DNA of 64,000 nt from assembly GCA_964450385.1 (NCBI GenBank), contig CAYVEC010000004.1, forward strand, positions 22,148-86,147, in the 5' to 3' direction. Each line of letters opens with the position of its first letter. The first letter of the stretch is position 1. The position numbers and the translations under genes are program-made. This DNA is from an uncultured Planctomycetales bacterium (GTDB lineage Bacteria > Omnitrophota > Gorgyraeia > Zapsychrales > JANLHA01). The notes beneath the pieces are model-generated. The model was not told the origin of the DNA and searched no databases. It saw only the letters and a program-made list of their open reading frames with translations. This document shows positions 1,233-64,000 of the stretch, piece after piece.

Positions 1233-1243
1233 GAGCCGGAGAG

Positions 1244-1588
1244 ATGGATCAAAAAAGACAGAAAAACGGTTGCGGCGTGTCCACGGTTGAGTATATGATT
1301 CTTTTGGTCTTCTGTTTGGCGGCGCTCGTGCTCATGTCCGGGCCGGTCCAGCGGGCGATCCAGGGGCGCTGGAAGGCGACGGCCGACACCTTCGGCCAGG
1401 GCCGGCAATTCGAGCCGTCGAGCGGCGGGGCAGCGAAAAGGACGCGAGACTATTTTTTTGATGCCGATACACAGGACTGGATCAGCCAATATTGTTTTGA
1501 TCAGCGGTGTGATTGCAGTTTTGAAGAGATCGATCCTGCCTATGACGCACAGTGTGTTCGCTGCAAGGCTGGTTGTCGGGTCCCCTAG
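1244..1588 (+). CDS. flp: Flp/Fap-family (type IVb, Tad) prepilin-like protein with an unusual Cys-rich C-terminal extension
   Basis: N-terminus MDQKRQKNGCGVSTVEYMILLVFCLAALVLMSG fits the class-III prepilin motif G/xxxxEY followed by a hydrophobic helix, typical of Flp pilins. GGAGAG lies just upstream of ATG 1244 (the track's ATG 1226 overlaps the upstream stop). The roughly 60-aa C-terminal tail contains 6 Cys (CFDQRCDCSF...CVRCKAGC), unusual for Flp pilins. Confidence 0.55.
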   Translation: MDQKRQKNGCGVSTVEYMILLVFCLAALVLMSGPVQRAIQGRWKATADTFGQGRQFEPSSGGAAKRTRDYFFDADTQDWISQYCFDQRCDCSFEEIDPAYDAQCVRCKAGCRVP

Positions 1589-1624
1589 GTAGGGCGTAAC
1601 GGGGAAGCGGTCAACGGGGGGAGA

Positions 1625-2482
1625 ATGTTTCCATTGGCTTTATTCTTGGCGTTTCTGACGGCCGTGATCACGGGCTACTGGGTCCTCCCGGCGGTCTACG
1701 GTCAGGGCGTCGGGTTCCAGCAGCGGCGGGCGCAGCAGTTCACCTCGCGGCTTGAGCGCGTCGTCTCACGCCCGCAGGCCCAGCGGATCATCCAGCTCTA
1801 TCTTCTCGCTCCGTTGTTCCTCGCCGGCGTCATGTATTTCACGGCCCCGGCTCGGCTGCAGATCCTGGCCGGCGCGGCCGGACTCGCCCTGGGCCTTGTC
1901 GTCCCTACGTTCTACACACGGATCCTTGTCGCGGGCAATAAAAAGAAATTTGATGAACAGCTCATCGACACGCTCATGATCATGTCGAGCTCCTTCCGCG
2001 GGGGGCTGAGTCTCATGCAGTCGATCGAGGCGGTTGTTGAAGAGATGTCCGACCCGGCGGCCCAGGAGTTCGGGACCGTGCTCGGCGAGAACAAGATGGG
2101 CGTCTCGCTCGAGGAGTCGATGGAACACCTGTATAATCGTCAGCCGAGTCCGTCGCTGCAGCAGATGATCACCGCGATCCTCCTCGCGCGCGAGACCGGG
2201 GGGAACCTGCCGGCCATCTTTCAGCGGATCGTCGACGTGATCCGCCAGCGGCGCCGGATCCAGGGGCAGATTGACACCCTCACTCTTCAGGGGAAGATCC
2301 AGGGCGTCGTGATGTCGATCCTGCCGGTGGCCTTCTTTATGATCATCAGCTCGACGAACCCGGACCATTTTAAGGTGATGTTTGATACCGAGATCGGCCG
2401 CATTCTGCTTCTTGGTGCCCTGGTCGCGGAGATTATCGGCGCGTACATGATCTGGCAGATCAGCTCGTTGAAGGATTTTTGA
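1625..2482 (+). CDS. tadB: Tad pilus assembly inner-membrane protein TadB (type II secretion system F domain)
   Basis: 285 aa with an N-terminal TM helix and T2SS-F domain motifs (..LIDTLMIMSSSFRGGLSL.QSIE..; ARETGGNLPAIFQRIVDVIRQRRR; C-terminal TM helices), matching the TadB/GspF-like family pattern. Confidence 0.8.
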   Translation: MFPLALFLAFLTAVITGYWVLPAVYGQGVGFQQRRAQQFTSRLERVVSRPQAQRIIQLYLLAPLFLAGVMYFTAPARLQILAGAAGLALGLVVPTFYTRILVAGNKKKFDEQLIDTLMIMSSSFRGGLSLMQSIEAVVEEMSDPAAQEFGTVLGENKMGVSLEESMEHLYNRQPSPSLQQMITAILLARETGGNLPAIFQRIVDVIRQRRRIQGQIDTLTLQGKIQGVVMSILPVAFFMIISSTNPDHFKVMFDTEIGRILLLGALVAEIIGAYMIWQISSLKDF

Positions 2483-2503
2483 TATGAGACGGAGGCGTTA
2501 GAT

Positions 2504-3388
2504 ATGTTCCTCTTCTGTTTATTCCTGGCCTTTCTGTCGGCCTTCAGTTTTATCATGGGGATGTTCCCCGTCGATTGGGAATCCCGGCCGACGCTTGAGA
2601 CCTTCGGGTATGATGTGCGGATCAAAAAGCGGGGGGGCCGGCGGTTCTCGCTCCTCAGGATCGTTTCGCTTATCAACAAACCCCTCTGTGTGGGGGTCAT
2701 GGGTGCCCGTATCCGGAAAGACCTCGTCAAGGGGCGCGTGGCGATATCGCCTGAGGAATTTTTTCTGCTCAAAGAGATCAGCGTGATCCTCATCTCGATC
2801 GCGGCGGTGATGCTTATTCCCAAAGACATGCTCTCCCTCGGCCTCCTCATCGGCGTCATGGTGGGGTATCTCCTGCCCGAGTATTGGTTAAAGGGCAAGA
2901 TCAAACAGGTCCGCCAGACGATCCTGAAGGAACTCCCCGACGCGGTTGACCTCCTCGGGCTCTGCGTTAATGCCGGGCTGGATTTCATGCTTGCCCTCAA
3001 ATGGGTCGTCGAGAAATCCCCGCCGTCGGTGATGATCAATGAGCTCAACATCCTGCTTCAGGAGATCAACGTCGGGAAAACCCGCCGGGACGCGCTCAAA
3101 TCTCTCGCGCAGAAATATGATCTCCCCGATCTCTCGACGTTCACTCGGACGCTCATCCAGGCCGACAAGATGGGGACCTCGGTCGCCGAGGCCCTTAATA
3201 TTCTTTCGGAAGACATGCGGCTCGCCCGCTTCCGGCGCGGTGAGCAGCTCGCCATGAAGGCGCCGATCAAGCTCCTGGTCCCGCTCATGTGTTTTATCTT
3301 TCCGGTCGTGGGTATATTGGTCGCAGGCCCAATCTTTATTCAATTTATGACCGATAATCCGCTGAGCAAGATCGGCGGCAAGAAGTAA
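2504..3388 (+). CDS. tadC: Tad pilus assembly inner-membrane protein TadC (type II secretion system F domain)
   Basis: 294 aa with an N-terminal TM segment and T2SS-F domain (LPDAVDLLGLCVNAGLDFMLALKWVVEKSP...; LIQADKMGTSVAEALNILSEDMRLARFRRGEQLAMKAPIKLLVPLMCFIFPVV), classic TadC features. It sits 21 nt after the tadB stop. Confidence 0.8.
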   Translation: MFLFCLFLAFLSAFSFIMGMFPVDWESRPTLETFGYDVRIKKRGGRRFSLLRIVSLINKPLCVGVMGARIRKDLVKGRVAISPEEFFLLKEISVILISIAAVMLIPKDMLSLGLLIGVMVGYLLPEYWLKGKIKQVRQTILKELPDAVDLLGLCVNAGLDFMLALKWVVEKSPPSVMINELNILLQEINVGKTRRDALKSLAQKYDLPDLSTFTRTLIQADKMGTSVAEALNILSEDMRLARFRRGEQLAMKAPIKLLVPLMCFIFPVVGILVAGPIFIQFMTDNPLSKIGGKK

Positions 3389-3412
3389 CATAGAGTGACG
3401 CGTTGTGTGACA

Positions 3413-3442
3413 AGGGGACGATTATCGTCCCCTTTTGTATTT
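3413..3442 (+). terminator. Rho-independent terminator after tadC
   Basis: GGGGACGA-ttat-TCGTCCCC perfect 8-bp stem followed by TTTTGTATTT, 25 nt after the tadC stop codon. Confidence 0.6.
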
Positions 3443-3456
3443 AAAAAGGGAAAAAT

Positions 3457-3511
3457 AAATGTCCAATTTTAATGTCCAAAATGTGTCAAGAGGGGTTTTA
3501 ATGTCCAAAAC
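3457..3511 (+). promoter_or_regulatory. Cluster of direct repeats TTAATGTCCAAAA (operator-like); a fourth copy lies at 3955-3968 inside the start of the giant ORF
   Basis: Exact 13-mer TTAATGTCCAAAA at 3469-3481 and 3498-3510 with a near copy AAATGTCCAATTTT at 3457-3470; an identical TTAATGTCCAAAAT recurs at 3955-3968. Three exact copies of an AT-rich 13-mer within 500 bp of a GC-rich genome is non-random. Confidence 0.4.
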
Positions 3512-3674
3512 AGCGACGGATGCGGAAGAAAGCCCTTTCATTTTTTTGGGCGAAAAGGGTCATCCTGTCGGCTGCAAAGACCGAAAAAAATTTTTTATTT
3601 TTTTCTCGACAAAAATTTTTTTCCAATCACCAAAAGACGTTTGATTTTAAACGAGTTAAAGCATAAAAATTTTT

Positions 3675-3702
3675 TTGACCGATTTGCCCGCTCATATATA
3701 AC
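3675..3702 (+). promoter_or_regulatory. Candidate sigma70-type promoter for the giant gene (TTGACC-N16-TATAAC)
   Basis: TTGACC at 3675-3680 and TATAAC at 3697-3702 with 16-nt spacing, about 170 nt upstream of ATG 3871. It is flanked by A/T homopolymer tracts (3581-3630, 3664-3674) that could act as an UP element or bent DNA. Confidence 0.35.
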
Positions 3703-3870
3703 ATGATATACTCTTAGCGCACTAGCCCGGAGGAAAAAAGAACAGCCGTATCGCAGTTGTCAAGAACATAATTGTCCAATCACAAAAGTCGCCTGAACCG
3801 GCGACTTTCTTGTTTTATAAAAACCCCGGGCGTTTTCATAATGTACAGTCTGTAAATATAGGATTCTTTT

Positions 3871-6800
3871 ATGGACGACAGAATGGACATAAAAACGAGC
3901 GCCGAAACTGTATCCGCGTGCCATGAGCAGGCGGGTGAGGGAACGGTGCGTCTTAATGTCCAAAATACCGGGATCCTCCATGCCCCGGAAGCCGGGCATG
4001 GGTTCCAGAGCCGTTTTAAGGCCTGGATCCGGGTTGTCGCGGCCCTGATCGTCTTTGTCTTTGTGCCGGAACAGGTGAGCTGGGCCATGAGCTATAATCC
4101 GGCCGTGCTCTGGAGCCCCCAGCCGATCCCGCTCGCGGTCGGGGCCCCGGTTTCTGGACCGGACCTTGTCCCAGCTGCGCCTGAGCTTGAATTGCCCCAG
4201 GCCGAGGCTGCGGCCATGCTCGCCTCGAATATCGAGTCCCTCATGGGCCGGATCGCGCAGATGAATGCCCGGCAGATTGATCTTGAGATCGCGTCCGCTG
4301 ATCAAAAACGGTTCGCGGATATCAAGAACCTCCGTCTTTCGACCCGTAAAAGGATCGCGGCCGCGGATATCCAGGCGGCCGTGTCGTGGCTGAAACAGCC
4401 CGAGATCCATCCGCTCAACTGCGGTGTTTTTGCCGCCTATGACTTTTTAAAGCACTACAATCAGCCGGTCTCGATCGAGCAGGTCTCGCTCGCGACGCTC
4501 TCGGTGGACCTGCTGTCTGACATTATTAGGCCCGGCGACCCGACGCTGAAGACGTCACTGTTCGCGATCAACCGGGTGCTCTCCCTGTATCCCGTTAAGC
4601 ACGCGGTGATTAAGATGCATCCTGAGGCGATGCTGCGCCTCGCCCCGCCGTTTATCGCGAATTTCCAGAGCGAACACTTTGTCCTCGTGACCGGCGTCTC
4701 CGGTGAGACGCTGACGGTCCAGGATACGGGCCGCGTGCGCGAGGTCCCGATCCCAGACTTTTTGGCCCAGGCCTCGCCGTTCGTCGTGATCGCCGAGAGC
4801 GGGATCCCGGAGGGTGTTGAATATACTGAGGCTGGCGCGGCCGAGCAGGCTTATATCTGGGGTGACAAGTGGGTGGACCGGTCGGATGAACTGCCGGGTC
4901 TCATGGGCGATGTCAGCGATGTGATCCAGGACGTCTTGGTCGAAGTCGCGATCATTGTTGTATTGGCAATCATTCAGGTCCAGATGGCGCAGTGGATCCA
5001 GCGGGCGGCGGAGGGGGCCCAGCAAGCTGGCGAGGCCGCCTCGATGCTCCAAAAGCTTGCCGCCCAGATGAATAAATTAGATTATGTGAAAAATTCTGCC
5101 GACTTGGGCAAGGCGCTCGGGACGGCGATGGCAATGGTCGGGGTCAGTGATTTTGCGAATACGCTCAATCAGGTTGCAGTCCTTCAAGGCTGGTGGGATG
5201 AGGATCTGGGTTTTGTGATGAGTACGGCGATGTCCACGGTCTTGGCCGGGGCCGTCGTGGGGCCTGGAATCGATGGCGTAGTCACAGCGGCGGAGGGCCT
5301 CCCACAGAATGCTACGGGGTCTGTCATCTTGAGCGAGACAGCCAGGGGTTTTGCGAGCGGGGTCAGGTCTTCCTTCACGGCCTCTCGGATGGCCACGATC
5401 TTAGGCACGGCCGTGGTGTCGACGTCATCCAAGGTCGCCCTTCACAAGGCCCTTCCGGAGGGCATGAATCCGATCATGCGGAATTTTTTGATGGGCCTCG
5501 GCTCGAGCCTGATGACCCAGGCGGTCCTCGCGGCTGGAACCATGGCTTTTTCATCCATGAAGCAGGAGATCGGCGCCGGTAATACGGTTAAGGATCAGCT
5601 TGATCAAAAGTTGGCGGAGTGGCAAAAAAATAATCCCGGGAAGATCATGACCCCGGCCGAGAGGGAGGTCTTGGTCAACGAAGTACGCGCGGGCTTGATC
5701 GCTGGTATTAATAATGGTTCGATCGATCCAGAGTCGGCGCGAGAGGCCTTTGCCAGGGCCGAGGAGCGGGGCTACCTTGAAGAGAACGTCCCGCAGGAGG
5801 TGCGTGCTCAAATCGAGGCGGATTTTAAAGCATACGCGGCAACCCCTGCTTTTAATGAAGCGATGAATGCGTATGTTGCGAAAGCGCAAGCAAATGCTTC
5901 TTCTGGTTCGACAAACGACTTAAAAAACCTATATATTGAACAGCAACGGGGCGTCTTTACTTCTAATAAGATAGATGGGTACATCGCGTCACAGCTTGCC
6001 CTGAGCGACCGTTTTGTGAGTAAGGCGATGCAGGACAAGCGCGCGGGATGGCGGAATGAATTTGATGACAAGATAAAAGACATCGGCGTGTTGAAGGAGA
6101 TGGTCAGCCGCGGCTATTTTGATCGAACCTTTGTTCCCTTTAATACTCAAGAGACCTGGTCGTGGCTGGGGCGCAGCATGCTTTCGCAGACGATCGGGAT
6201 GAGCTTTGCCGCCGGGATCAAACTCCTCCTCGAAAAAGTTGATGAGGACACCTTCGGCCCTGAGACGGCCGTGGCCCAGGCCCTGGCCGGATTCGGGCAG
6301 ATGATGGGCGAGGTGGTGGCCCAGGGCTTTTTAACAGGCTGGAAGGCGCCGGGCGAGATCGCATCGGGCGGTGTCGAGTTTGAGCATGTGACCCAGGTCG
6401 ACGGGAAGGACATGGCGGTTGAATTGAGGGACAATGGCCAGTGGTATCGTGTGGCCGATGCGGGGAAACCTGTCGAGACGTTAACGCCGGTCGCGGTCGA
6501 ACAGATCGTCTCGCGTCCTATCGTGTATACACAATCAGGCGAAAAGGTCTATTTGACGTTTAATCCGGCAGGCGCTGTTGTTGCCCATCGTGGGTCTTCC
6601 GACGGAGAAGAGGTTGCGCTTTCCTGGAATGATCAGGGTGAGATCCTCGCAGGCCCTATAAATGGAAATGATGACGGATGGCAGAGGATGCAGGCAAAGC
6701 TGCGCCTTGCGCCATCAGTCGGCATGAACGGCCAGATCTCAGGGACGCTCGTTCAGGATCGCACCTGGGGGAAATTCCTTACGGCGAATCTTGTGCAGGC

Positions 6801-9800
6801 CGCGGTCGGTGGGGCGATCGGGTTCGGGATCGATCAATTGGAAGGGCTGTGGATTGATAAGGAAGACACAAGTTTGGACAATAAACGCAAGACCCTGCTC
6901 GTGAGGTCGCTCGTATTTACCGGGATGCTCGGCCTTGTCGAGGCCACGGGTGCCATGAAACGCTCGAAGCTCGCGGGGACGGCCGAGCCGTCGCCTGAGA
7001 GCGCCTTTGGGTATCTGTTCCTGAAGGGCGGGACCACCTTCCTTATGAATACGGCCATGGCCTTGGGGACGTTTAACGGCACGATGCCGGGTTCGGATGG
7101 GTTCAGGTCGCCGCAGCAGGCGGTCCAGTTCGCTGAGGCGGTCTCGGATCGTGTCGGGTTCGGCACGAGCACGTATCTCGCGATGTCGGGCATGCGTGAG
7201 GATATCGATAAGAGCGAGATGTCCGCTGCCCAGAAAGAGTATCAATTGAAGACCGGGATGATGACGGTTCTCGACGACGCGCACCGGGGCTGGATCTATG
7301 ACCAGCTTAACACCCAGCTCTCGGGCGGGTTCATGGGGTCGGATATCTTTGTCGAGGGAGGGATCGTCACCGCTGGCAAGACGGCCCTATCCATGCTTTT
7401 GTCCGGAGAGAACAATGCCTCGCGCGTCCGCGACCTCCTCGGGTTCACGTATTATCGGTGGGTCGTTCAGCCCGTGATCACTGCTGAGGCCCGCACATCT
7501 GAGCCGGCGGCTCTGACTGCCGCGCCGGGCACGACGCCCGCTACGCCGGCCGAGAGGCCTGAGGGCGACGCTGATCGCGCGGAGGAGCCCCCGGCCGAAA
7601 ACATTAAGAGAACGAATCTTTACGCCCTCGGCGCGTCATCCGCGGCTGATCCCTATCGGGAGACCTTTGACCTGCCGTCGCTCGGGGTGGCGCTTGGCCG
7701 CGGGGCCATTGTTAAGGATTGGGGCCGCGGATATCAGGAGATCACCCTTGCGCTGGGCAAGGACCTTCAGGAACGCTGGGGGATCAGCGCCGAGGATCTC
7801 CGACTCGGTCCGGTCGGCGGGGATTCGCTCCTTGGGGAAACGCCTGAAGAGATCGCCGAAAAGCAGAATCCGGCGCGGAGGGAGTTTATCCGGACGGCCG
7901 CCGGTAACAGCGCGGTCGGGCTGCGGGGCTTTATGTCGGATTTTCTCACCGAGCCGGGGCTGCGGACAGAGGGATTTGTCATCCTTGAGGACGATCTCGG
8001 CAAGGATCGTCAGGGCGTCTCTGCGCTCGTCTATCGGATCGATCCGGGCGCGCGCACGGCCACGAACGGCAGATGGGAAGGCGACCTGATCCGCGTTTTA
8101 GGCGACAACATGGAGCTGTTCGATGGGCATGTCATGAGCCATGTCGGACTTTCCGGAGAGGTTGCGCCAATCCATCCCGACGTGCTCCTGGCTCAAAAGG
8201 CTGAACGGATCGCAGATCTAACAGCGAGGATGGAACAACTTGAAGACGAGATGGTGGATTTAGAAATTCAGAAATTTTTTAATCCTGGATATGATGCGGA
8301 GTATTTATATCATCTGGTCAAGAATGAAGAGCATCAGGAAAGGCTTCAAGTTGAAATAGCAGCTTTAGCAAAGGAGATAAGTCAGAGTTCAGATCCCGGT
8401 CAGGTGGCGGATTTGGAAGCCCTCATTAGGGAGAAAGAGAATGAATCCACGAGGGTAGCGTTAGATGACCAGTTGTTGTCTAGGTCAGGCTGGAGTGACG
8501 ACACAAATTCAAATATCCTAATTAATAATAAACAGAAAGAGGGACTAGACATTGAGAAGTCTCTTGATAATCTTAAGGCCCTGAATCTCGACGCCGGGCT
8601 AAGCACGCGCGTTGAGACCGTTGCGCTCGGCCTCAAGGGCGAGGAAGGGAGCAAGTATGTGACCCTGAGCCGCAGCTCCCTGGACCGCCGGCAGTATTTT
8701 GAAAAGACAAAGACAGAGGCGTTCGCCCCCGTGGTTTATCGCCCGATCCCGTCGGACAAGAATCCGTTTGATCAGCAGGAGCCGGAGCGGCATGCCCTTT
8801 TCGGGGTGAGCGAGGATGCGCACACCTTGAGGGTTGTGCAGGCCCTGCGGGCTTCTGGATTTAACGATACGTTTATTTCGCGGCTGCAGAACGGCACGTT
8901 GACTGATGCGGAACAGAAAGACGCGATCAGGGTGCTTCAGGAACAGGGCGTGGTCGGTCAGGAGACAACGGGCCGGGCGCTCTTCGACCGCGTCCGCGGG
9001 CTCGCGCAGTCCACGTCGGGTATGAATGAGTTCTTTGACGTGTCGCTCCGGGATTCGTTGGGTAAGGCCGACAGCGTTGAGGCGGGTTTCTTTAGCGGAT
9101 ATCTCGAGGATGCGAACGGACCGAAGGGCCTGATCCGGCTCGCGGCTGCCCGGCTCACGCCCAAGGGGAATGATTGGCGCATGAACATGGCCTATCATGT
9201 CGTTGGCAATCGCTTTGTGGGGATGGATCCCCAGAATCTTTCGATCGATGAGACGGACCTTAACGGCCTTGCCCTTGTTGACGTGCGGACGAAAGGGATC
9301 TCGGCCCTGGATGTCTTTGACGGAAAGACGCGGCTTGATGACGGGATTCTCGGCGGGGTCGCGGGGCAGAGCGGTGTCGCGATGCGCCAGCGCGAGGCGG
9401 CGTTGAGGAGATCAACGGCCTCGACGGATCTTATCACGTTAGTGCAGGCCATTAACGTGGTGTCGTATGCGGAGGCTCAGACCAGGCTTTTTAAAGAGGC
9501 CACAGAAACGATAAACAAATTTTTTGCGAAAGAATTCCCTGCTGAGACGGTGCCGGAGGATATTGCTGGCAAGATCGGTCTTTTGAAGGCAAAAGTCGAT
9601 GAGAAGAAAGAGGACCTTAGAGCAGGGACACTCACTGTTGTGGGAGAGGGATTGTCTGCTCAGCCCAAGGAAGAGGCGATTGCCGCTTTGACGAAAAAAG
9701 TCAAAGACCTTGAACAAGTCGCTAAGTTTATTGAATCTCGGGAGCTCGGTGAGATGAACGTTGCGCAGACTCGGGCTGCCCTTCAAGAACAGATTGGTCG

Positions 9801-57800: not shown

Positions 57801-60800
57801 CGTGGCCGAGACGTGTGTCGCATTAGCGCAAAAACTCAAAGAGCGGTATCCCGCGATCGTGTTTACGATCTTTATTTCTCCGTTAACGGATGAGGAGATC
57901 GAACGCCGGAAGGCCGAGGGGGGCAAGACAGAGGAAGAGGTGATTTATGAGGAGATGCGGCGGCGGCAAGAAGAGCGGAACCGGGAGATCCCGATCGAAG
58001 AGAAAAAGCGGGAGGCGCGGGCCCGAACGGCTGTGACAGAAATGGCGCGTCGGCATGATTATGATGCGATGATCGTCATCTCGGATCTGCGTGATATTAA
58101 GGCTCATGCGGATCGCTGGCAGGGAGAAGAGGGGTCGGCCCTCGTTGAGCATTTTATGGGATTGGTCAGAACCGCGGCAGGGATCACCGTCGGTGGGGCA
58201 GGGGAGGCGGAGACAGATCAGGGGATGATATCAGAAGGGGATCAGGCGCTCGTTGAGGATATAGTGACGGTTCTTTCTTGGAGTGCGGAACGACAAACAA
58301 TTCCAAACGGATTTGATCTTTTGTGGATTATGGGCTCACCGAATCGCAGGACCCCAGGGACAGCGATCCAAATTTTAAAGCATCACCCTGAGGCCAAAGT
58401 CCTTATTACGGGCGGTACAGGGAAGAATAATATGCAGACGCCGGAGTGGTTCCTTGCGGGAAGACCTCTTTTTGCAAAGGCGGCTCAATATCTTGATCAG
58501 GCCTTGGATGCCCTGGATAAAATGAGGTCCACAGACGAGGAATTATTCTGGAACATAATGAAAGAGCGTTTTGGCATTTCCCGCGGTGCGGGTTCGGCCA
58601 AAGACCATTCTAATGAGCGATATCGATGGGATATTATTGTGGGACTCAAAGGATATCAGTGCCTCTCTCGATTAAGAAACACAACGATCGAGGAGGCGGT
58701 TTTAGATGACCTGCTTAATAGAGAGACTCGTCCCCATACATTTGTTCCTGAGGCGATGCTCTATTACGCCGTTTTAGCAGCAGAAGGGGTTCCGGAAGAG
58801 AACATGGTCATGGAGTGCCAATCGACGTCTTCGCTTGAGAATATTGAATTTGGCGCCACGTCATTAAAGGTAAACAACATTAGCCCGCGAGATATTGTTC
58901 TGATCCAGCAGGGATATAATCAGCGTCGAGGCAGATTGACGTTTCAAAAGAACTTTCCGAAATTTTTCCCGAATTGGCAAGGGACCGTGACAAGCTGGGC
59001 TGGTCATTTATTTGATGGCAGCGATGGAGCCGATGAATTCGATCTCCATCAAATACGAGATCCAGAGCAATTAGAGTATTGGCGCCAAAGAGCAGTCCGC
59101 GAGGTTGAAAGGATTTTAAATTATGCGGGCCAACATGATGAAAATATTATTGTAAAGGAGCCGGTCCCTGCACAAGTATTTGATGCGGCAAAACGTCTTG
59201 TTGCGGGTAGGGAGAATGAAGGGTGGCACAACGCAGAGCGCGAGTATCGATCATCTAATAATGGGCCCAATAAAGATGAAGGCATGCTGGCCGCTGACGA
59301 TGCAAGAAGAGATGATGGGCTGAAAGGCTTTGGATCGAGCTCTGTCCAGATGCAAACATATTCAGACTTGGCCGGGACATTTGAGGATGATATCACGCTT
59401 GGTGTTCGGGTCGATCAAAAAGGCCCGATCAAGGTAACGGTGCCGGTCCTTAAAGAGAGGCGAAACCCTGTTCGCGAAAAACGAGTTCAGGAGATCGCGG
59501 CGTTATTTAATGAGGCGTTTGTCTTATTAGAGGAGACCGTTTCAACAATAGGGGCGGAAGAGCTGAAGGTGCATTATAGCGGATTATTGGCTCATCCGCA
59601 GAACAAGAGCCCGCCAGCCGATAAGCCTCAGAACATCGTTCGCTTTAGCAGGGAATTGCGTCGCGATTCGGCGCGTTATTTTAATAAGAATGCCCACCGG
59701 GTTGAGTTTATTTTTAATGTGGACTTTATCGATCAATTATTGAGCGGGCATGCGGATCATTCTAAACCCGTTCAGTATATTCTGGCCCAGCGCCTGTTCC
59801 ATGAGATCGGGCACAATAACGACAAAACGAATTTATATGGTCAGGTCCGGGAAGAGTTCGAAATGGTCATCTGGGACCTCAAGCTGTTCGAGCTCTATGA
59901 ACGGATTGGGGCTACCGCAGGGATTAGTGCGTATTATATGCAAGAATTTCCGAACGGCACGGGATTTATCAATCGGACATTTAGGGAATTAGCCAAGACG
60001 AATAGCGACCTGAGGGATCAGGCTCAGCCGCTTTATAAAGCGGTGAAATCGGCCCTAACAGAGATGAATGCGATTGAAGAATTACCGGAGAAAGAGGTAG
60101 GGGCTTTTGTTCAAGAGTTCAGGACCAAATATCCCGCCGTGTATGAAGAGATGGGAGAGGCGGCACGAGTCACCTTTGTCAACATCTTAGAGTGCGTGCG
60201 GCGAGAGACCATTCCTTATGAGGGGGGATACATACGGACCATTATCAAGCTTTCGCGGATGATGAAGGCTAAGCCGGAGCTTTTGCTTCAGTTGAGGGAT
60301 AAGATCGATGAGCTTGAAAGGGTCGAGAATGAGGCGTTGGTGGATTATGTTAAAAATACTCGATCCGTTCATGGGGCCTATGATTTGGCAAATGACGAGG
60401 CTCTGAGGGACAGGGTTCGGGGGCGGGTTGATTATGTACGGGGCAGTTTAATGCCGGCGTTCCAAATACAGTTGCCGGCTGCGCGGCCGTATACATTCTT
60501 GCAGGATTATATGAGCCAGTTAAACATCCGCGCTAATATTGTTGCTGCCGAGAATCTGTTTTATTTGACCGGGACGCAGCAGGTCAGCGTGGTCCCCTGG
60601 CGGCATATTAATCTTCTCAATTTCCGCGGAAATGGCGATGGGACGATTCGTCAATATTTGAATTTCGCGATGAATTGGAGCCAGGCTCTTGGATTCGGGA
60701 TGACACGGGCGGAGAATAATATCGGAGGCCGACAGCGGCCGCACACGCATCCTAATGTCGAGCGCACCCTTTCTCTTTCGGATGATACCTTTGTTGTGAA

Positions 60801-63800
60801 CTATGCCAGGATCATGCAGGATGTGATCCTTGAGTTACAAGAAAAGGCCGGCATCTTAAAAGGCGAGGCCCAGGGGGGCGCGCTTTATAGAGCGATTACG
60901 GCAGCCTTGGCCGCTGATGTGATCGAACGCTTTGGTTCCGGACTGGCAGCGGCCAAGTTTTTGACGGAAGTTGCGTCAGAGAAACCTCACAAAGACTTTG
61001 TTGCTGTAATGAAGGCATGCGAGCGGTTAAGTGATTTAGAAAAAATGGAATTTTCAAGGGCCATAGAGTATATATCGGCACATGTTGCCAAAAGATTGCC
61101 GGAGCTTGAGGCCAAACACGGATTCTCATTAAAGTTCGCCCATATTAGTTATATTCCGCCAGAGGTCTCTCATTATATTAAGAACTCCAGCGGTTCGGTG
61201 CCTAGTGCTGACTGCACCATGAAGGACCTCTTTTTGCAGTTGTATAAGATTGTCGGGACTCCGGGGACGCAGGCGAGCGTTGAAAGTCTTCCGCCGAGGA
61301 CAGAATCACGGCACGACTGGGGCGAGGTTTTTGAACAGGTCCTGACAGAGGTCACGTCAAAAGTAGCGACCGATCCTAACGGAGAAATATACTTTGCTTA
61401 TGATGCGCGCGGGCGATACAACCCGATTTCAGTCGAAAGGGTGGCGCTGCGGGAGACGCTGATTACGGTCAGACCGGGCCAGCAGACAATGACTTTCGAT
61501 ATGGCACGTTATTTTGGCAAGCCGATTGGAGATGGAGTTTATATCGTCGCTCTTCAGCCGTGGCCGAAGGTTGTGCCCGAGCATTGGATGTTTGTTGATC
61601 CTGCAAAAGGGAACGCTCCCGTAGATCCGAAACGCCTCGTGTGTCAGATAGAGCTCTTTACCTCAGGAAGTTTAACACCGGTAGATGTTAAGACGCTGCG
61701 CGGCGGTGAACAGTTGGTGATTAACAATCGCGAGTCGCGCGAAAAAATTACACACATGAGGATTCGAAATGACTCAGAAAATATTAATAGCCATGAAGAC
61801 GCTTCAACGATCGTCATTTTAATTCCAGGTATTGAGGAGGACAATCCATTAAAGTGTTTTGGCGGACAGTCCTTTGTTGGGGCTGATTATGGGATGACGG
61901 GCGATGCGTTTGAGCAGGATTCGCGATTCATCGAGATGGCCGAGACATATTTCACAGGCGACAGGGACGCGACTAGGAAGGCGCTCATTTCTTGGCAAGA
62001 GGGATTTAAGAGCCGTTTAAATAAGGACGTCTCGATCGAACAATTGTTAAACGTGAAGATCGCGGAAGACCAGAAAGGGGCCACGGAATATTTTTATGTT
62101 CTTAATGCTGATGGGACAAGGACCGGACAGATCAAGCCGCGTCACCTTGTTCATCGAGACGGAGACTGGCACGCGTCTGTTTATGTGATGCTTTTTGACA
62201 AAGAAGGGAATGTTATTCTTCAGCGTCGATCCAAGAATCGGCAGACGGATCCTTTCAGGCTTGATGGCGCGGCCTGTGGCCATACCGCTCTTGAGCTTGA
62301 TTATCGAAAAGCGGCGGCCAAGGAGGCGAATGAGGAATTAGGGCTTGAGATCGAGCCACAGGACCTTATTTTAATCGGCCGAGAGAATCAGTATCTTGAT
62401 GTTTTTGATATGGTGGATAGGGATGGAAATGAGCTCCACAACAGAGGCATGACAACGGTTTTTGCCTACGTGCTTCCTGACGGCATAACATCGCAGGACC
62501 TGCGTTTTAGCAGGGAAGAGGTCGACAGCCTGGAAAGCCGGCCGTTTGCTGACGAAGTGTGGCGCGTTCAGCAACTGCCGGGCGACTATGCGACAGTTAA
62601 GAATTTCCTTCAGCCGGGGTCTGAGGTCGTCCGGCTCCTTGGGGAAGCGTTTGAGAACGAGGTGCGCCAGCGTCTTGAGGCTCCTGGAATCTTCATCAGT
62701 GATAAAGATGGTACGATCGTAGAGGCCAGCGAGGCGATCGATCCGGAGATGCTGCAGCAGTTGATGGTGCTGCTCGGTTTGAATATGCACGTGATGATCC
62801 TGACCGGTGCTATTTTTGAACATGGGCTTGCGACGGTGATCGACCCGATCGAGGCCGAGGCCCGGCGCCGTGGCCTGGCAGATCGTCTGCCGAACATCCG
62901 GTATTACTTTATCAGCGGCAATGGATGGATGACATGGGATCAGGAAGGCCGGCGCGCGATCCGTTATATTGAGCAGAGGTTCTCTGACGATGAGCTTTGT
63001 ATCATGGCCGTGAGTTTGGCGTCCTCGTTTATGGATGGCGTTGGGGAGAGGGCCGGCGGCGAGATCATTCTTGAGCCGTATCGCTCTCGGATTGACGCCG
63101 TGCGGTCGATCACGGAAGCGCAGCAGGTCTTCGGGGAATTCATTGAAAGGAATATTGAGACGACCGGTTTTGTCCGGATCGATAATGGCGATGATCGCAT
63201 GGTCATTCTCGAATTAAAGGCCTCACAGCACCGGCTTGCCCGGCCGGCATGGCGTCGAGATGATTTTGTGAGGGTTGTGTATGAGCGCGCATTGTCGCGC
63301 CTCACGGAGCGTGGGGTTACGGTGCCGGTCCATCATTATGGCGCGACGTTCATTGATTTCAACCAGCGCAACAAGAAAGAAACGTTCCGCAGGATCATGG
63401 ACGAGCCGGCCTTCCGGAGGTCTCCGGTCTATGCCTTTGGAGATGGGGCCAATGACTACGAGTTTTTGAATGATCCGGTATCTTATGGCCGAAAGAAGGC
63501 CTTCCTTGTTCGGGCGCCGCAGAGCGGATCCGAGGAACGATTAAAGAATGTCACGATCTGGAGAGCAGAAGGACCCGCAGGCACGAAGGAGATCATTAAG
63601 TCTATTGTTTTTCCTGAAATGATCGGACGAAGGTGGGGCATGGGTGTTGGTAAGGATATCGCGGAGATGATGTCGTTCTTCGGCGGCGACATCGAAAGGG
63701 CCCGCGGGGCCTTGATCGGGTGGCAGCGTGAGTTGAAGGAAAAGATCGGTCAGGACAAGAGCCTCGAGCAGATGACGACCTTTAAGGATGACGCGCATTC

Positions 63801-64000: not shown

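What the first reader, a model, noticed from the sequence alone, without database searches (positions are those of the whole stretch)
1244..64000. Giant membrane-anchored multi-enzyme gene directly downstream of a Tad/Flp pilus locus: candidate host-attachment/interaction system
flp, tadB and tadC are followed within 480 bp by the giant gene on the same strand. Its product carries membrane anchors plus peptidase-like (C39, M23), glycosidase-like (GH-A) and glycosyltransferase-like modules, the kind of toolkit expected for attacking or remodelling another cell's envelope. Tad pili mediate tight adherence. The combination suggests one contact-dependent system. This is inference: a terminator and a separate promoter lie between the two units, and the resemblance to giant ORFs reported in Omnitrophota is from memory and cannot be verified here.
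Basis: inference. Interest (0 to 1): 0.75.

Follow-up and report, generated by a model that had tools for sequence, protein, structure and literature searches.

The report
Omnitrophota giant gene beside Tad locus
This is the first 60 kb of one of the already described "giant genes" of the ultra-small Omnitrophota bacteria, in its usual place just after a Tad pilus locus; new here, it carries a hidden cellulose/glucan-synthase-like module paired with a glycosidase.

Summary
A stop-free frame runs from 3862 to the window end (first ATG 3871, at least 20,043 codons). It starts 482 bp after tadC, behind a terminator and a promoter-like site. A pilin-like ORF, tadB and tadC lie upstream.

All named relatives of TadB, TadC and the giant's N-terminal head come from Omnitrophota MAGs. 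In 50 of 58 species-level loci, a homologous giant ORF with a C39-like head follows tadC on the same strand. Full-length relatives reach 17,642–30,865 aa. This adjacency and the attachment/predation reading are already published (Seymour 2023; West-Roberts 2023; Nielsen & Lui 2026). The window therefore holds a new member of a known kind.

All four module calls were verified and refined:
- **C39-like head:** the Cys-His-Asp triad is invariant across 23 species.
- **M23 domain:** it lacks its zinc ligands, so it is probably non-catalytic.
- **GH-A barrel:** both catalytic Glu are present.
- **"GT-like" module:** it is a BcsA/Fks1-type processive synthase that Pfam does not detect.

The synthase keeps a conserved order with the GH-A and the GK/Nudix domains in other giant fragments. 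This suggests the protein builds and trims a surface glycan as much as it attacks prey; that reading is inference. A conserved AATGTCCAA operator-like motif marks the giant gene's upstream region.

The parts
3..1232 (+). C-terminal 409 aa of a large Tad-locus protein (1,250-1,590 aa in relatives), function unknown
   Evidence: No Pfam hit. tblastn finds it at the same position in 52 loci. Full-length neighbours are 1,252-1,587 aa.
1226..1588 (+).
   Evidence: G|VSTVEYMILLVF motif. Positional orthologues at 32-42% identity, plus paralogous small pilins upstream in relatives. One paralogue reaches Class_IIIsignal (28.3 bits, above the cut-off) and the orthologue hits Flp_Fap weakly. The window ORF itself has no relevant Pfam hit.
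1625..2482 (+). TadB-like platform protein (single T2SSF domain, 285 aa)
   Evidence: Pfam T2SSF E 1.1e-18. 60-70% identical orthologues in 83 loci.
2504..3388 (+). TadC-like platform protein (single T2SSF domain, 294 aa)
   Evidence: Pfam T2SSF E 1.2e-13. 891 homologues; the named ones are Omnitrophota, and JGI calls them TadC.
3412..3444 (+). Terminator-like hairpin plus T-run after tadC
   Evidence: 10-bp stem with 6 GC pairs, then a T-rich tail. This is a consensus match only.
3458..3508 (+). Three TTAATGTCCAAAA boxes; further copies at 3771-3783, 3955-3963 and inverted at 3884-3896. Candidate operator array.
   Evidence: TGTCCAA is 10-fold enriched in this intergenic region across 55 loci and occurs at least twice in 42 of them. 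Consensus AATGTCCAATCTGA. Inverted pairs about 25 nt apart.
3675..3712 (+). Sigma-70-like promoter candidates for the giant gene
   Evidence: TTGACC-18-TAACAT and TTGCCC-17-TATACT with a TG extension. This is a consensus match only.
3785..3817 (+). Leader hairpin plus T-run about 60 nt before the ATG (candidate attenuator)
   Evidence: Conserved with compensatory stem changes in L004 and L015. No Rfam family.
3871..63999 (+). Giant ORF, first 20,043 codons; the 3' end lies beyond the window
4003..4905 (+). Conserved N-terminal head (aa 45-345): TM1 (aa 53-71) plus a C39-like cysteine peptidase domain. TM2 follows at aa 355-373 (nt 4933-4989).
   Evidence: 30-45% identity in 61 loci. Invariant NCGV (C184), EHFV (H269) and D285 in 23 species. 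Profile hit to 6mpz at E 5.5e-4. Homologues carry PF03412.
32752..32991 (+). Degenerate LytM/M23 domain (aa 9628-9707)
   Evidence: Pfam M23 31.5 bits. The alignment to LytM lacks the HxxxD and HxH zinc ligands.
39703..40695 (+). Clan GH-A (beta/alpha)8 glycoside hydrolase domain (aa 11945-12275), preceded by a signal-peptide-like hydrophobic stretch (aa 11891-11937)
   Evidence: 111 homologues at 30-38% identity, annotated GH2 TIM-barrel. Invariant WELGNE (E12048) and SEMG (E12146). Model pLDDT 79.5. Foldseek hits GH158/GH157/GH2 at E about 1e-13.
45745..47529 (+). Transmembrane cluster 1 (aa 13959-14553, about 6 helices) upstream of the synthase catalytic domain
   Evidence: Hydropathy scan. 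Region conserved in other giant fragments.
48700..50754 (+). BcsA/Fks1-type processive glycosyltransferase: catalytic core (aa 14944-15226) plus TM cluster 2 / channel (aa 15227-15628)
   Evidence: Only 60 homologues among 1.84 billion representatives. Invariant D (NLDRD), ED (NIEDT), FYGPG and the RFGG motif. Profile hits Fks1 at E 1.1e-6 and BcsA at 1e-4. Model pLDDT 69.7. Foldseek top hits are all membrane synthases. Pfam finds nothing here.
51100..51294 (+). HEAT repeats (aa 15744-15808)
   Evidence: Pfam HEAT_2 E 1.7e-7.
52708..56652 (+). Guanylate-kinase-like P-loop domains: aa 16280-16650 (P-loop intact at 16445) and a tandem pair at aa 17036-17300 / 17330-17594 (66% identical, no canonical P-loop)
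   Evidence: Self-BLAST and motif scan.
56875..57450 (+). Nudix domain resembling isopentenyl-diphosphate isomerase / YfcD (aa 17669-17860), canonical Nudix box at 17737
   Evidence: Pfam NUDIX E 1e-23. NCBIfam IDI 125 bits against a cut-off of 127. PDB IDI hits. Nudix box.
57517..57975 (+). Guanylate kinase domain (aa 17883-18035), P-loop GPSAVGKS intact
   Evidence: Pfam E 1e-27. TIGR03263 141 bits against a cut-off of 160. PDB guanylate kinases at E 8e-11.
58744..58983 (+). DUF218 domain (aa 18292-18371)
   Evidence: Pfam 27.5 bits against a cut-off of 27.6. Borderline.
61948..62349 (+). Second Nudix-like domain (aa 19360-19493), Nudix box not canonical
62692..63474 (+). HAD-IIB-like hydrolase (aa 19608-19868)
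   Evidence: NCBIfam HAD-SF-IIB E 8e-5 and Pfam Hydrolase_3 E 0.009, both below their cut-offs.
63664..63999 (+). Third Nudix-like domain (from aa 19932), cut by the window end
   Evidence: Self-BLAST against the other two copies.

Best explanation
The window holds the tail of an Omnitrophota Tad-type pilus locus: a large unknown protein, an Flp/TadE-like pilin, TadB and TadC. Next comes a separately transcribed 'giant gene' of the multi-enzyme (Archaeovorin-like) class, in the position such genes usually occupy in this phylum.

Shown here:
- The product has at least 20,043 aa and several clusters of membrane helices.
- It starts with a TM helix and a C39-like cysteine peptidase head. The Cys-His-Asp triad of that head is invariant across species.
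- It carries a LytM domain without zinc ligands, a GH-A glycosidase with both catalytic Glu, and a BcsA/Fks1-type processive polysaccharide synthase between two TM clusters.
- Its tail holds guanylate-kinase-like, Nudix, DUF218 and HAD-like domains.
- The order GH-A, TM cluster, synthase, GK/Nudix recurs in other giant fragments.

Inferred mechanism:
- The protein sits in the inner membrane beside the Tad machinery.
- The synthase polymerises a nucleotide sugar in the cytoplasm and extrudes a glycan through its own TM channel. The linkage is unknown. A beta-glucan is a guess, based on the Fks1 and BcsA hits and on GH158/157-like fold matches.
- The GH-A domain trims or releases that polymer, as BcsZ does for cellulose.
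- The cytoplasmic kinase, Nudix and phosphatase domains handle nucleotides and sugar phosphates.
- The C39 head cleaves the giant chain or a partner protein.
- Pilus and glycan/protein coat together serve attachment to a host or prey cell.
- Expression is controlled by a dedicated regulator that binds the AATGTCCAA boxes.
For: Identity and synteny:
- TadC, TadB and head homologues with names are all from Omnitrophota.
- 50 of 58 loci with at least 3 kb downstream of tadC carry the homologous C39-headed ORF on the same strand. In 42 of these it starts within 3 kb and runs off the locus end.
- Called gene lengths are 30,695, 26,408 (cut by the contig end), 17,642, 30,865 and 25,316 aa.

Literature:
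- Giant Omnitrophota genes are generally preceded by a T2SS/T4P-like system and start with C39 domains.
- The V. archaeovorus Tad complex is expressed in co-culture, and giant-protein peptides rise 3-fold in attached cells.

Domains:
- C39 triad.
- GH-A.
- Synthase.
- GK, Nudix and HAD.
- Conserved order, and GH-A with the synthase in P0252, P0254, P0257 and P0265.

Separate regulation: terminator, promoter-like site, conserved boxes and leader hairpin.

A further fit from the literature: pilZ genes downstream of most giants and GGDEF domains within them. This matches c-di-GMP-gated BcsA-type synthases from established knowledge. It is inference, because no PilZ or GGDEF lies in the window.
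Against: - No experiment links the Tad pilus and the giant protein. They are separate transcription units, and the operator-like motif is almost absent from the 10 kb of Tad genes.
- Membrane topology is unresolved. The hydropathy scan gives an even number of helices between GH-A and the synthase core, which would put GH-A in the cytoplasm.
- The synthase assignment rests on distant similarity. Profile E-values are 1e-6 to 1e-4, Foldseek TM-scores are 0.3-0.46, and the model pLDDT is 70. The QxxRW motif reads FQMRF in this protein.
- Substrate and product are unknown.
- About 85% of the 20,043 aa has no detectable homology.
- The 3' part of the gene and its downstream neighbours lie outside the window.
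- The published reading stresses degradation of prey walls, not synthesis.
Confidence: 0.55

Rival explanations
1. Published reading: the giant protein is mainly a predation weapon. It is a membrane-anchored, largely extracellular adhesin and hydrolase array that binds prey and digests its cell wall, and the neighbouring T2SS/Tad-like system exports it or provides attachment.
For: - Proposed by West-Roberts 2023 and adopted by Nielsen & Lui 2026.
- Giant-protein peptides rise 3-fold in attached V. archaeovorus cells.
- This protein has an apparently active GH-A glycosidase, a peptidoglycan-hydrolase-type M23 fold and a cysteine peptidase head.
Against: - The M23 domain lacks all three zinc ligands.
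- Only one glycosidase was found in 20,043 aa.
- The conserved partner of that glycosidase is a polymer-exporting synthase.
- At least 2,400 aa are nucleotide and sugar-phosphate enzymes that need cytoplasmic substrates.
- No adhesin, dockerin, lectin or lytic transglycosylase domain was detected in the window part.
Confidence: 0.25
2. The giant ORF is a polyprotein. It is a string of otherwise independent enzymes released by the C39 head or other proteases. Its position next to tadBC is inherited gene order without functional coupling.
For: - The C39 triad is invariant at the very N-terminus. West-Roberts raise cleavage as a possibility.
- The GH-A domain's closest homologues are stand-alone proteins of about 335 aa, and it keeps a signal-peptide-like stretch in front.
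- Separate terminator, promoter and operator boxes.
- The body diverges fast while the head is conserved.
Against: - The adjacency survives across TadC identities from 50 to 70%, while the rest of the giant gene diverges almost beyond recognition. This argues for selection on the arrangement.
- The domain order around the synthase is conserved.
- No cleavage sites are known.
Confidence: 0.15
3. Artefact: the long frame results from assembly chimerism, a reassigned stop codon, or chance.
For: GC falls from 0.58 to 0.50 near nt 44,000. The contig comes from a metagenome.
Against: - The fall is in codon positions 1 and 2 (amino-acid composition), while GC3 stays steady.
- The upstream genes end in ordinary stop codons.
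- At this base composition, 20,046 stop-free codons are not a chance event.
- Regions on both sides of the GC shift are collinear with other giant fragments, for example P0240, P0243 and P0270.
- The head, GH-A, synthase, GK and Nudix domains all have homologues with intact catalytic motifs.
Confidence: 0.02

Closest known systems
Omnitrophota giant genes / 'Archaeovorin'-type giant proteins (V. archaeovorus LiM 39,678-aa protein; West-Roberts et al. 2023; Seymour et al. 2023; 'multi-enzyme metabolic cluster' class of Nielsen & Lui 2026)
   Same: Omnitrophota origin. N-terminal C39 domain next to a TM/signal region. Many TM helices. Mostly unannotated sequence with HEAT, NUDIX, HAD, GH, GT and peptidase domains. 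Located directly after a Tad/T2SS-like locus with class-III-signal pilins.
   Different: Only the first 20,043 aa are visible, so the total length is unknown. No SecA_DEAD, GT5/GT1, methyltransferase, TPR or GGDEF domain was found in this part. The BcsA/Fks1-type synthase module and the multiple guanylate-kinase-like domains are not mentioned in those two giant-gene papers.
Tad (tight adherence) / Flp type IVb-like pilus systems
   Same: Two single-T2SSF platform proteins of about 290 aa (TadB, TadC) in tandem. They are preceded by a small protein with a G/xxxxEY-type class III signal motif. Relatives carry several such pilins upstream.
   Different: The ATPase, secretin, TadZ and prepilin peptidase are not in the window. 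The pilin-like ORF is 120 aa with a Cys-rich extension and gets no Flp or TadE Pfam hit. The locus includes large unknown proteins (1,250-1,590 aa) that are not part of canonical Tad loci.
Synthase-dependent exopolysaccharide systems: bacterial cellulose synthase BcsA with endoglucanase BcsZ and PilZ/c-di-GMP control; fungal Fks1 (GT48) with glucan remodelers
   Same: A GT-A catalytic core with D, DxD-like and (T/N)ED motifs, followed by a TM bundle. TM clusters lie on both sides, as in Fks1. It recurs in a fixed order with a glycoside hydrolase.
   Different: It is embedded in a polypeptide of more than 20,000 aa instead of being a free-standing protein. The QxxRW motif is altered (FQMRF in the window, RKW in distant members). 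There is no PilZ domain in the module. Sequence similarity is very low (10-14% in fold alignments). The product is unknown.
C39 peptidase domains of bacteriocin/PCAT ABC exporters (e.g. PCAT1, 6mpz)
   Same: Cys, His and Asp are in the right order. The His-to-Asp spacing of 16 matches my recollection of ComA. His and Asp align to the PCAT-type active site in the profile match.
   Different: The domain is not fused to an ABC transporter. It lies between two TM helices at the start of a giant protein. The window sequence is below the Pfam cut-off. No conserved oxyanion Gln is obvious. The substrate is unknown.
Degenerate LytM (dLytM) factors such as EnvC, NlpD and SpoIIQ
   Same: M23 fold signature with the metal-binding residues missing.
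   Different: No coiled-coil or LysM partner domains were recognised. A role as an amidase activator is untested.

Membership tests
Omnitrophota giant gene (Seymour 2023: ORF over 20 kb; West-Roberts 2023: over 30,000 aa) | Single ORF longer than 20 kb (Seymour) or longer than 90 kb (West-Roberts) | tested here: met
   At least 60,129 nt are stop-free and the 3' end is cut. This meets the 20-kb criterion. The 30,000-aa criterion cannot be judged from the window; the source contig is 98,661 bp.
Omnitrophota giant gene | Encoded in an Omnitrophota genome | tested here: met
   All named TadC homologues and nearly all of the 80 genome loci are Omnitrophota MAGs. Head homologues are also named Omnitrophota. 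No marker-gene phylogeny of the contig itself was possible.
Omnitrophota giant gene | N-terminal C39 (or S8) peptidase domain near a signal/TM segment | tested here: met
Omnitrophota giant gene | Numerous transmembrane helices | tested here: met
   About 20 hydrophobic segments in five clusters, by Kyte-Doolittle scan only. No dedicated TM predictor was available.
Omnitrophota giant gene | Divergent SecA_DEAD domain (present in 'most', so not strictly defining) | tested here: not met
   No SecA hit in Pfam, NCBIfam or PDB searches of aa 1-20,043. It may lie beyond the window.
Omnitrophota giant gene | Preceded by a T2SS/T4P/Tad-like locus with class III signal pilins | tested here: met
Tad/Flp pilus locus | TadB and TadC: two separate single-T2SSF inner-membrane platform proteins | tested here: met
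   JGI names the homologues TadC.
Tad/Flp pilus locus | Flp pilin with a G/xxxxEY processing motif | tested here: inconclusive
   The motif is present and there are orthologues and paralogues. There is no Flp_Fap, TadE or Class_IIIsignal hit for the window ORF. One paralogue passes Class_IIIsignal, and the orthologue hits Flp_Fap at E 0.095.
Tad/Flp pilus locus | TadA/CpaF ATPase, RcpA/CpaC secretin, TadV prepilin peptidase | not testable with these tools
   These would lie upstream of the window. None carries a recognisable Pfam domain in the 10 kb upstream of tadC in relatives. The literature reports gspD, gspE and rcpC further upstream, and a complete Tad complex in V. archaeovorus.
Peptidase family C39 | Catalytic Cys and His (plus Asp) in a papain-like fold; Pfam PF03412 above its gathering score | tested here: inconclusive
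   The triad is invariant. The profile hits 6mpz at E 5.5e-4, with His and Asp aligned. Homologues carry PF03412. The window sequence scores 17.3 against a cut-off of 22, and the fold was not modelled.
Active M23 (LytM-type) metallopeptidase | Zinc ligands HxxxD and HxH | tested here: not met
   The alignment to LytM has gaps at H210 and D214, and YMM/MMR where HLH should be. The domain itself passes the Pfam cut-off.
Clan GH-A glycoside hydrolase | (beta/alpha)8 barrel with an acid/base Glu after Asn on strand 4 and a nucleophile Glu on strand 7 | tested here: met
   WELGNE and SEMG are invariant in 35 sequences. The model shows alternating strands and helices. Foldseek hits GH158, GH157, GH2 and GH5. 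Assignment of the two Glu to strands 4 and 7 follows the motif pattern and was not checked by structural superposition.
Membrane-integrated processive GT (GT2 BcsA/Chs/HAS; GT48 Fks1) | GT-A core with D, DxD, (T)ED and QxxRW motifs, followed by a TM channel | tested here: inconclusive
   Invariant D (LDxxH), invariant ED and a following TM bundle are present. Sequence profile and fold searches both point only to this superfamily. QxxRW is replaced by xxRF/RKW. Similarity is remote and Pfam finds nothing. Assignment to a CAZy family is not possible.
Guanylate kinase | P-loop GxxGxGK[ST] and a full-length match above the equivalog cut-off | tested here: inconclusive
   P-loops are intact at aa 16445 and 17890. 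Pfam E 1e-27. TIGR03263 scores 141 against a cut-off of 160.

The most novel reading that the evidence does not exclude
Omnitrophota giant proteins of this type may contain a complete, so far unannotated exopolysaccharide machine. Its parts would be a BcsA/Fks1-like processive synthase with its own TM channel, a cognate GH-A glycanase, and fused cytoplasmic nucleotide and sugar-phosphate enzymes. The module is conserved in domain order across Omnitrophota and reaches Elusimicrobiota.

On this reading the giant protein is primarily a factory for the cell's glycan coat or tether (the 'velamen'). The coat would work with the Tad pilus in host attachment. A dedicated AATGTCCAA-box regulator would switch the gene on, and the downstream PilZ proteins reported in the literature would add c-di-GMP control.
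Probability: 0.3. Interest if true: 0.7.

Novelty: new member of a known kind. Interest (0 to 1): 0.42.

Why it matters
What the giant proteins of Omnitrophota do is an open question. They are among the longest predicted proteins known, yet most of their sequence is unannotated.

This window adds nothing new on the headline point. The link between Tad loci and giant genes is already published.

It does give the question a concrete, testable handle. The conserved stretch from about aa 13,940 to 15,650 resembles a cellulose/beta-glucan-synthase-type enzyme. It recurs in a fixed order with a glycosidase that looks active and with nucleotide-handling domains.

If confirmed, part of the 'weapon' would be a polymer-building machine. 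That would change how the coat and the attachment of these episymbionts are understood. The conserved operator-like motif offers a way to find the regulator that switches giant genes on.

Tried and rejected
- **Exact look-up of the window's TadC and of P0001 in the contig index:** nothing on record, so the source contig, its sample and the rest of the gene could not be fetched. Cluster look-up gave only 'NCBI, contig 98,661 bp' without an accession.
- **Rfam at gathering thresholds over the whole window:** no RNA family, so no riboswitch in the leader.
- **Pfam, NCBIfam and PDB phmmer on four 5,000-aa chunks:** most of the protein stays dark.
- **Chunk boundary check:** the first chunking split the protein at aa 15,000/15,044, inside the synthase module. 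Re-scanning the unsplit region still gave no Pfam hit.
- **GC drop at about 44 kb as a sign of chimerism or foreign DNA:** rejected. It lies in codon positions 1 and 2, and GC3 is steady.
- **Internal repeats as a source of length:** rejected for the first 16,000 aa. Self-similarity is confined to the GK and Nudix tail.
- **Shared regulation of the Tad genes and the giant gene through the TGTCCAA boxes:** not supported. The boxes cluster between tadC and the giant start and are nearly absent from the 10 kb upstream.
- **M23 as an active peptidoglycan hydrolase:** rejected.
- **C39 head as the missing prepilin peptidase of the Tad locus:** considered and not pursued. The pilin-like proteins lack Gly-Gly sites before the TxEY motif.
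- **Literature searches combining Omnitrophota with tight adherence, GT48 or glucan synthase:** no extra papers.
Full report
**1. Observation**

Frame +1 of the window has no stop codon from 3862 to 63999, which is 20,046 codons. The first ATG is at 3871, and the ORF runs off the 3' end. GC3 stays at about 0.5-0.75 and exceeds GC1+2 over the whole length, as expected for real coding sequence.

Overall GC falls from 0.58 to 0.50 near nt 44,000. The fall lies in codon positions 1 and 2, so it reflects amino-acid composition: Ala/Gly/Arg-rich 'dark' sequence gives way to membrane and globular domains. It is not a sign of foreign DNA or a chimeric assembly.

Upstream on the same strand lie four ORFs:
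- A 409-aa C-terminal fragment of an unknown protein (3-1232).
- A 120-aa ORF (1226/1244-1588) with a G|VSTVEY prepilin-type motif.
- Two T2SSF proteins of 285 and 294 aa, TadB-like and TadC-like.

The tadC stop and the giant ATG are 482 bp apart. The spacer holds a strong terminator-like hairpin right after tadC (3412-3434) and sigma-70-like promoter matches at 3675-3712.

**2. Origin and synteny**

TadC has 891 homologues. The best non-identical ones are 61-70% identical, and every named one is from Candidatus Omnitrophota. An identical protein sits on a 98,661-bp NCBI contig. The contig index did not return that contig.

Neighbour look-ups in relatives show the same gene order: small class-III-signal pilins, a 1,250-1,590-aa protein, a pilin of about 122 aa, TadB, TadC, a gap of 0.4-1.5 kb, and then a giant gene.
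- The giant gene is 30,695, 17,642, 30,865 or 25,316 aa long, with one further example cut by a contig end at 26,408 aa.
- Two exceptions were a 968-aa C39 gene on a long-read contig and a locus with an inserted reverse-strand gene.

A scan of one genome per GTDB species with a TadC alignment returned 80 loci, nearly all labelled Omnitrophota. A few carry labels such as 'uncultured Planctomycetales'.
- 58 loci have at least 3 kb downstream of tadC.
- In 42 of them, a stop-free frame starts within about 3 kb and runs to the locus end.
- In 50 of them, tblastn finds a homologue of the window's N-terminal head on the same strand, 0.4-5.9 kb after tadC.
- Only aa 45-345 of the giant protein is broadly conserved (30-45% identity). 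The body diverges beyond recognition except in the closest species.

The adjacency is conserved.

**3. Prior knowledge**

All of this has been described.
- Seymour et al. 2023 list Tad complexes and ORFs over 20 kb as symbiosis traits of Omnitrophota. They note that the V. archaeovorus Tad complex is expressed in co-culture and that giant-protein peptides rise 3-fold in attached cells.
- West-Roberts et al. [quoted passage not shown] That system is of T2SS/T4P type with class III signal peptides, and pilZ genes follow the giant gene.
- Nielsen & Lui 2026 find secretion or pilus flanks at 13 of 14 giants, including Tad cassettes. They define a 'multi-enzyme metabolic cluster' class.

The window is a further member of this kind.

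**4. Modules of the giant protein**

*C39-like head*
- Pfam gives only 17.3 bits against a cut-off of 22.
- All seven database homologues of the first 1,500 aa carry PF03412.
- An alignment of 23 species shows invariant NCGV (Cys184), EHFV (His269) and Asp285.
- The alignment's profile hits double-glycine protease domains (6mpz at E 5.5e-4; PCAT1). The His and Asp align to the PCAT-type active-site region.
- The domain lies between two hydrophobic helices, aa 53-71 and 355-373.
- Cys is extremely rare in this protein: 29 in 20,043 residues, and only C17 and C184 in the first 8,400.

*M23 domain*
- Residues 9628-9707 pass the Pfam cut-off.
- The alignment with LytM shows that HxxxD and HxH are both missing.
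- It is therefore a degenerate LytM domain of the EnvC/NlpD type, and probably not a peptidase.

*GH-A domain*
- Pfam shows only a trace, GH44 at E 0.034.
- Residues 11931-12290 have 111 homologues at 30-38% identity. These are mostly free-standing proteins of about 335 aa annotated as GH2 TIM-barrel proteins.
- WELGNE (E12048) and SEMG (E12146) are invariant.
- A model with pLDDT 79.5 matches GH158, GH157 (both beta-1,3-glucanases), GH2 and GH5 at E down to 2e-13.
- A signal-peptide-like hydrophobic stretch precedes the domain. This suggests capture of a once-secreted enzyme.

*GT-like module*
- Between two TM clusters (aa 13959-14553 and 15227-15628) lies a segment with the motifs NLDRD, FYGPG, NIEDT and FQMRFGG.
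- Pfam finds nothing there, even when the region is scanned unsplit.
- An exhaustive phmmer search of 1.84 billion representatives found only 60 homologues. Nearly all are fragments of very large proteins. The ten I looked up include seven with names: five partial Omnitrophota proteins, one labelled only 'bacterium', and, more distantly, one Elusimicrobiota protein of 7,525 aa. None is annotated as a synthase.
- In an 18-sequence alignment, the D of LDxxH, the ED of (I/A)ED(T/S), the G of YG(K/P)G and a Lys are invariant.
- The profile hits yeast Fks1/Gsc2 1,3-beta-glucan synthase (E 1e-6). The match includes the NEDIYAG region and a second stretch in the TM domain (FAPFVFNP against FGPFLKNP). 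It also hits BcsA cellulose synthase at E 1e-4.
- An AlphaFold model (pLDDT 69.7) retrieves only membrane-integrated processive synthases: BcsA, chitin synthases, hyaluronan synthases, Fks1/2, plant CesA and cyclic glucan synthase. E-values run from 1e-5 to 1e-2 and TM-scores from 0.3 to 0.46.

*Tail (aa 15,700-20,043)*
- HEAT repeats.
- Four or five guanylate-kinase-like P-loop domains. Two have intact P-loops, and one tandem pair is 66% identical.
- Three Nudix domains. One has a canonical Nudix box and scores 125 bits on the isopentenyl-diphosphate isomerase model, against a cut-off of 127.
- A borderline DUF218 domain and a HAD-IIB-like hydrolase.
- No SecA_DEAD, GT5/GT1, GGDEF or methyltransferase domain occurs in the visible part.

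**5. Conserved cassette**

BLAST of the window protein against the 60 synthase-bearing fragments shows a collinear order:
- blocks at aa 13,4xx-14,000, 14,105-14,420 and 14,502-14,850;
- the synthase at aa 14,944-15,490;
- GK-like and Nudix domains after it.

In P0252, P0254, P0257 and P0265, one or two copies of the GH-A domain lie 1,500-3,000 aa upstream of the synthase. A synthase that recurs with a glycanase is the hallmark of synthase-dependent exopolysaccharide systems, such as BcsA with BcsZ. That comparison rests on established knowledge. The pilZ genes and GGDEF domains reported around giant genes would fit c-di-GMP control of such a synthase. This step is inference, because neither lies in the window.

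**6. Mechanism**

*Shown:* identity, synteny, domain inventory, catalytic motifs and separate regulatory signals.

*Inferred:* the protein is a multi-pass inner-membrane mega-enzyme next to the Tad machinery.
- Its synthase extrudes a glycan of unknown linkage.
- The GH-A domain trims that glycan.
- The cytoplasmic tail handles nucleotides and sugar phosphates.
- The C39 head cleaves the chain or a partner.
- Pilus and coat together serve host or prey attachment.

The published alternative is a mainly degradative predation weapon. It remains possible, but this protein supports it less well. The M23 domain is inactive, only one hydrolase was found, and that hydrolase's conserved partner is a synthase.

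A polyprotein without functional coupling to Tad cannot be excluded. Topology is unresolved: the hydropathy count between GH-A and the synthase is even, which conflicts with the expectation that GH-A is outside.

**7. Regulation (seen in passing)**

- The tadC-giant spacer carries TTAATGTCCAAAA boxes at 3458, 3471 and 3500. A variant lies at 3771, an inverted copy at 3884-3896, and another copy at 3955.
- Across 55 loci, TGTCCAA is 10-fold enriched in this spacer relative to the 10 kb upstream. It occurs at least twice in 42 loci. Apart from overlapping pieces of this motif, the other top-ranked 7-mers are A/T-rich and far less enriched. The consensus is AATGTCCAATCTGA.
- It occurs in both orientations, often as inverted pairs about 25 nt apart just after tadC. 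That points to a DNA-binding regulator specific for the giant gene.
- A hairpin plus T-run 60 nt before the ATG is conserved with compensatory changes in the two closest relatives. No Rfam family matches it.

**8. Verdict**

The conserved adjacency and the Omnitrophota identity hold. The claim of a single contact-dependent attack system is not shown.
- The finding is a new member of a known kind.
- The added value is the unannotated BcsA/Fks1-like synthase and GH-A cassette, together with the operator-like motif. Both make the function of these proteins testable.

Noticed in passing
window 3458-3508, 3771-3783, 3884-3896, 3955-3963; same spacer in L001-L084: AATGTCCAA(TCTGA) boxes cluster between tadC and the giant gene's start. 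TGTCCAA is 10-fold enriched there across 55 Omnitrophota loci and occurs at least twice in 42 of them. It is often found as inverted pairs about 25 nt apart, and it is nearly absent from the Tad genes upstream. This looks like an operator for a giant-gene-specific regulator.
   Followed up: partly
window 3785-3817; L004 about 11385-11415; L015 about 11460-11490: A hairpin plus T-run lies in the 5' leader about 60-75 nt before the giant ATG. It is conserved with compensatory stem changes in the two closest relatives and is not evident in more distant ones. It may be an attenuator or the end of a small upstream transcript. No Rfam match.
   Followed up: partly
window 48700-50754 (aa 14944-15628); P0240-P0299: The synthase module has only 60 homologues among 1.84 billion representative proteins. 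Nearly all sit inside very large proteins, including a 7,525-aa Elusimicrobiota protein (MCG3204206.1). Public annotations do not recognise it as a glycosyltransferase.
   Followed up: yes
window 39541-39681 (aa 11891-11937): A Pro/Val/Ala-rich hydrophobic stretch ending in ...SASA|DE lies directly before the GH-A domain. It looks like the relic of a signal peptide. The domain's nearest homologues are free-standing proteins of about 335 aa from Bacteroidota, Sumerlaeota and others, which suggests domain capture.
   Followed up: partly
window 3871-63999: Cysteine is almost excluded: 29 Cys in 20,043 residues (0.14%). Only C17 and the catalytic C184 occur in the first 8,400 residues.
   Followed up: no
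window 54976-56652 (aa 17036-17594): Two adjacent guanylate-kinase-like domains are 66% identical, which indicates a recent tandem duplication. Both lack a canonical P-loop. Copies at aa 16445 and 17890 keep it.
   Followed up: partly
window 56875-57450 (aa 17669-17860): This Nudix domain scores 125.1 bits on the NCBIfam isopentenyl-diphosphate delta-isomerase equivalog, against a cut-off of 127. It also keeps a perfect Nudix hydrolase box. It is unclear whether it acts as an isomerase or a hydrolase.
   Followed up: no
window about 44000 onward: GC drops from about 0.58 to about 0.50. The drop is in codon positions 1 and 2 only, and GC3 stays steady. It marks a change in protein composition at the start of the membrane/synthase/enzyme-rich part, not foreign DNA.
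   Followed up: yes
window 1226-1588 and orthologues (e.g. L004:8714-9091, L013, L042): The pilin-like protein next to tadB carries a conserved Cys-rich C-terminal extension (CxC ... CxxC). This is unusual for Flp pilins. The upstream paralogues lack it.
   Followed up: no
L007, L009, L011, L026, L056, L057 and others (titles): Many contigs with Omnitrophota-type TadC and giant-gene heads are deposited as 'uncultured Planctomycetales'. A few are labelled Gammaproteobacteria or Lysobacterales. The cause is probably taxonomy labels or binning errors in the source records.
   Followed up: no
L087 5443-6909; L090 3945-5510: There are two exceptions to the usual layout. On one long-read contig the gene after tadC is called as only 968 aa with a C39 domain, possibly a frameshifted giant. 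In the other locus a 521-aa reverse-strand gene follows tadC, and no giant starts within 3 kb.
   Followed up: no
window 1-64000: GC skew is positive throughout (0.07-0.20), so the cumulative skew rises monotonically. This is consistent with one long coding strand.
   Followed up: no
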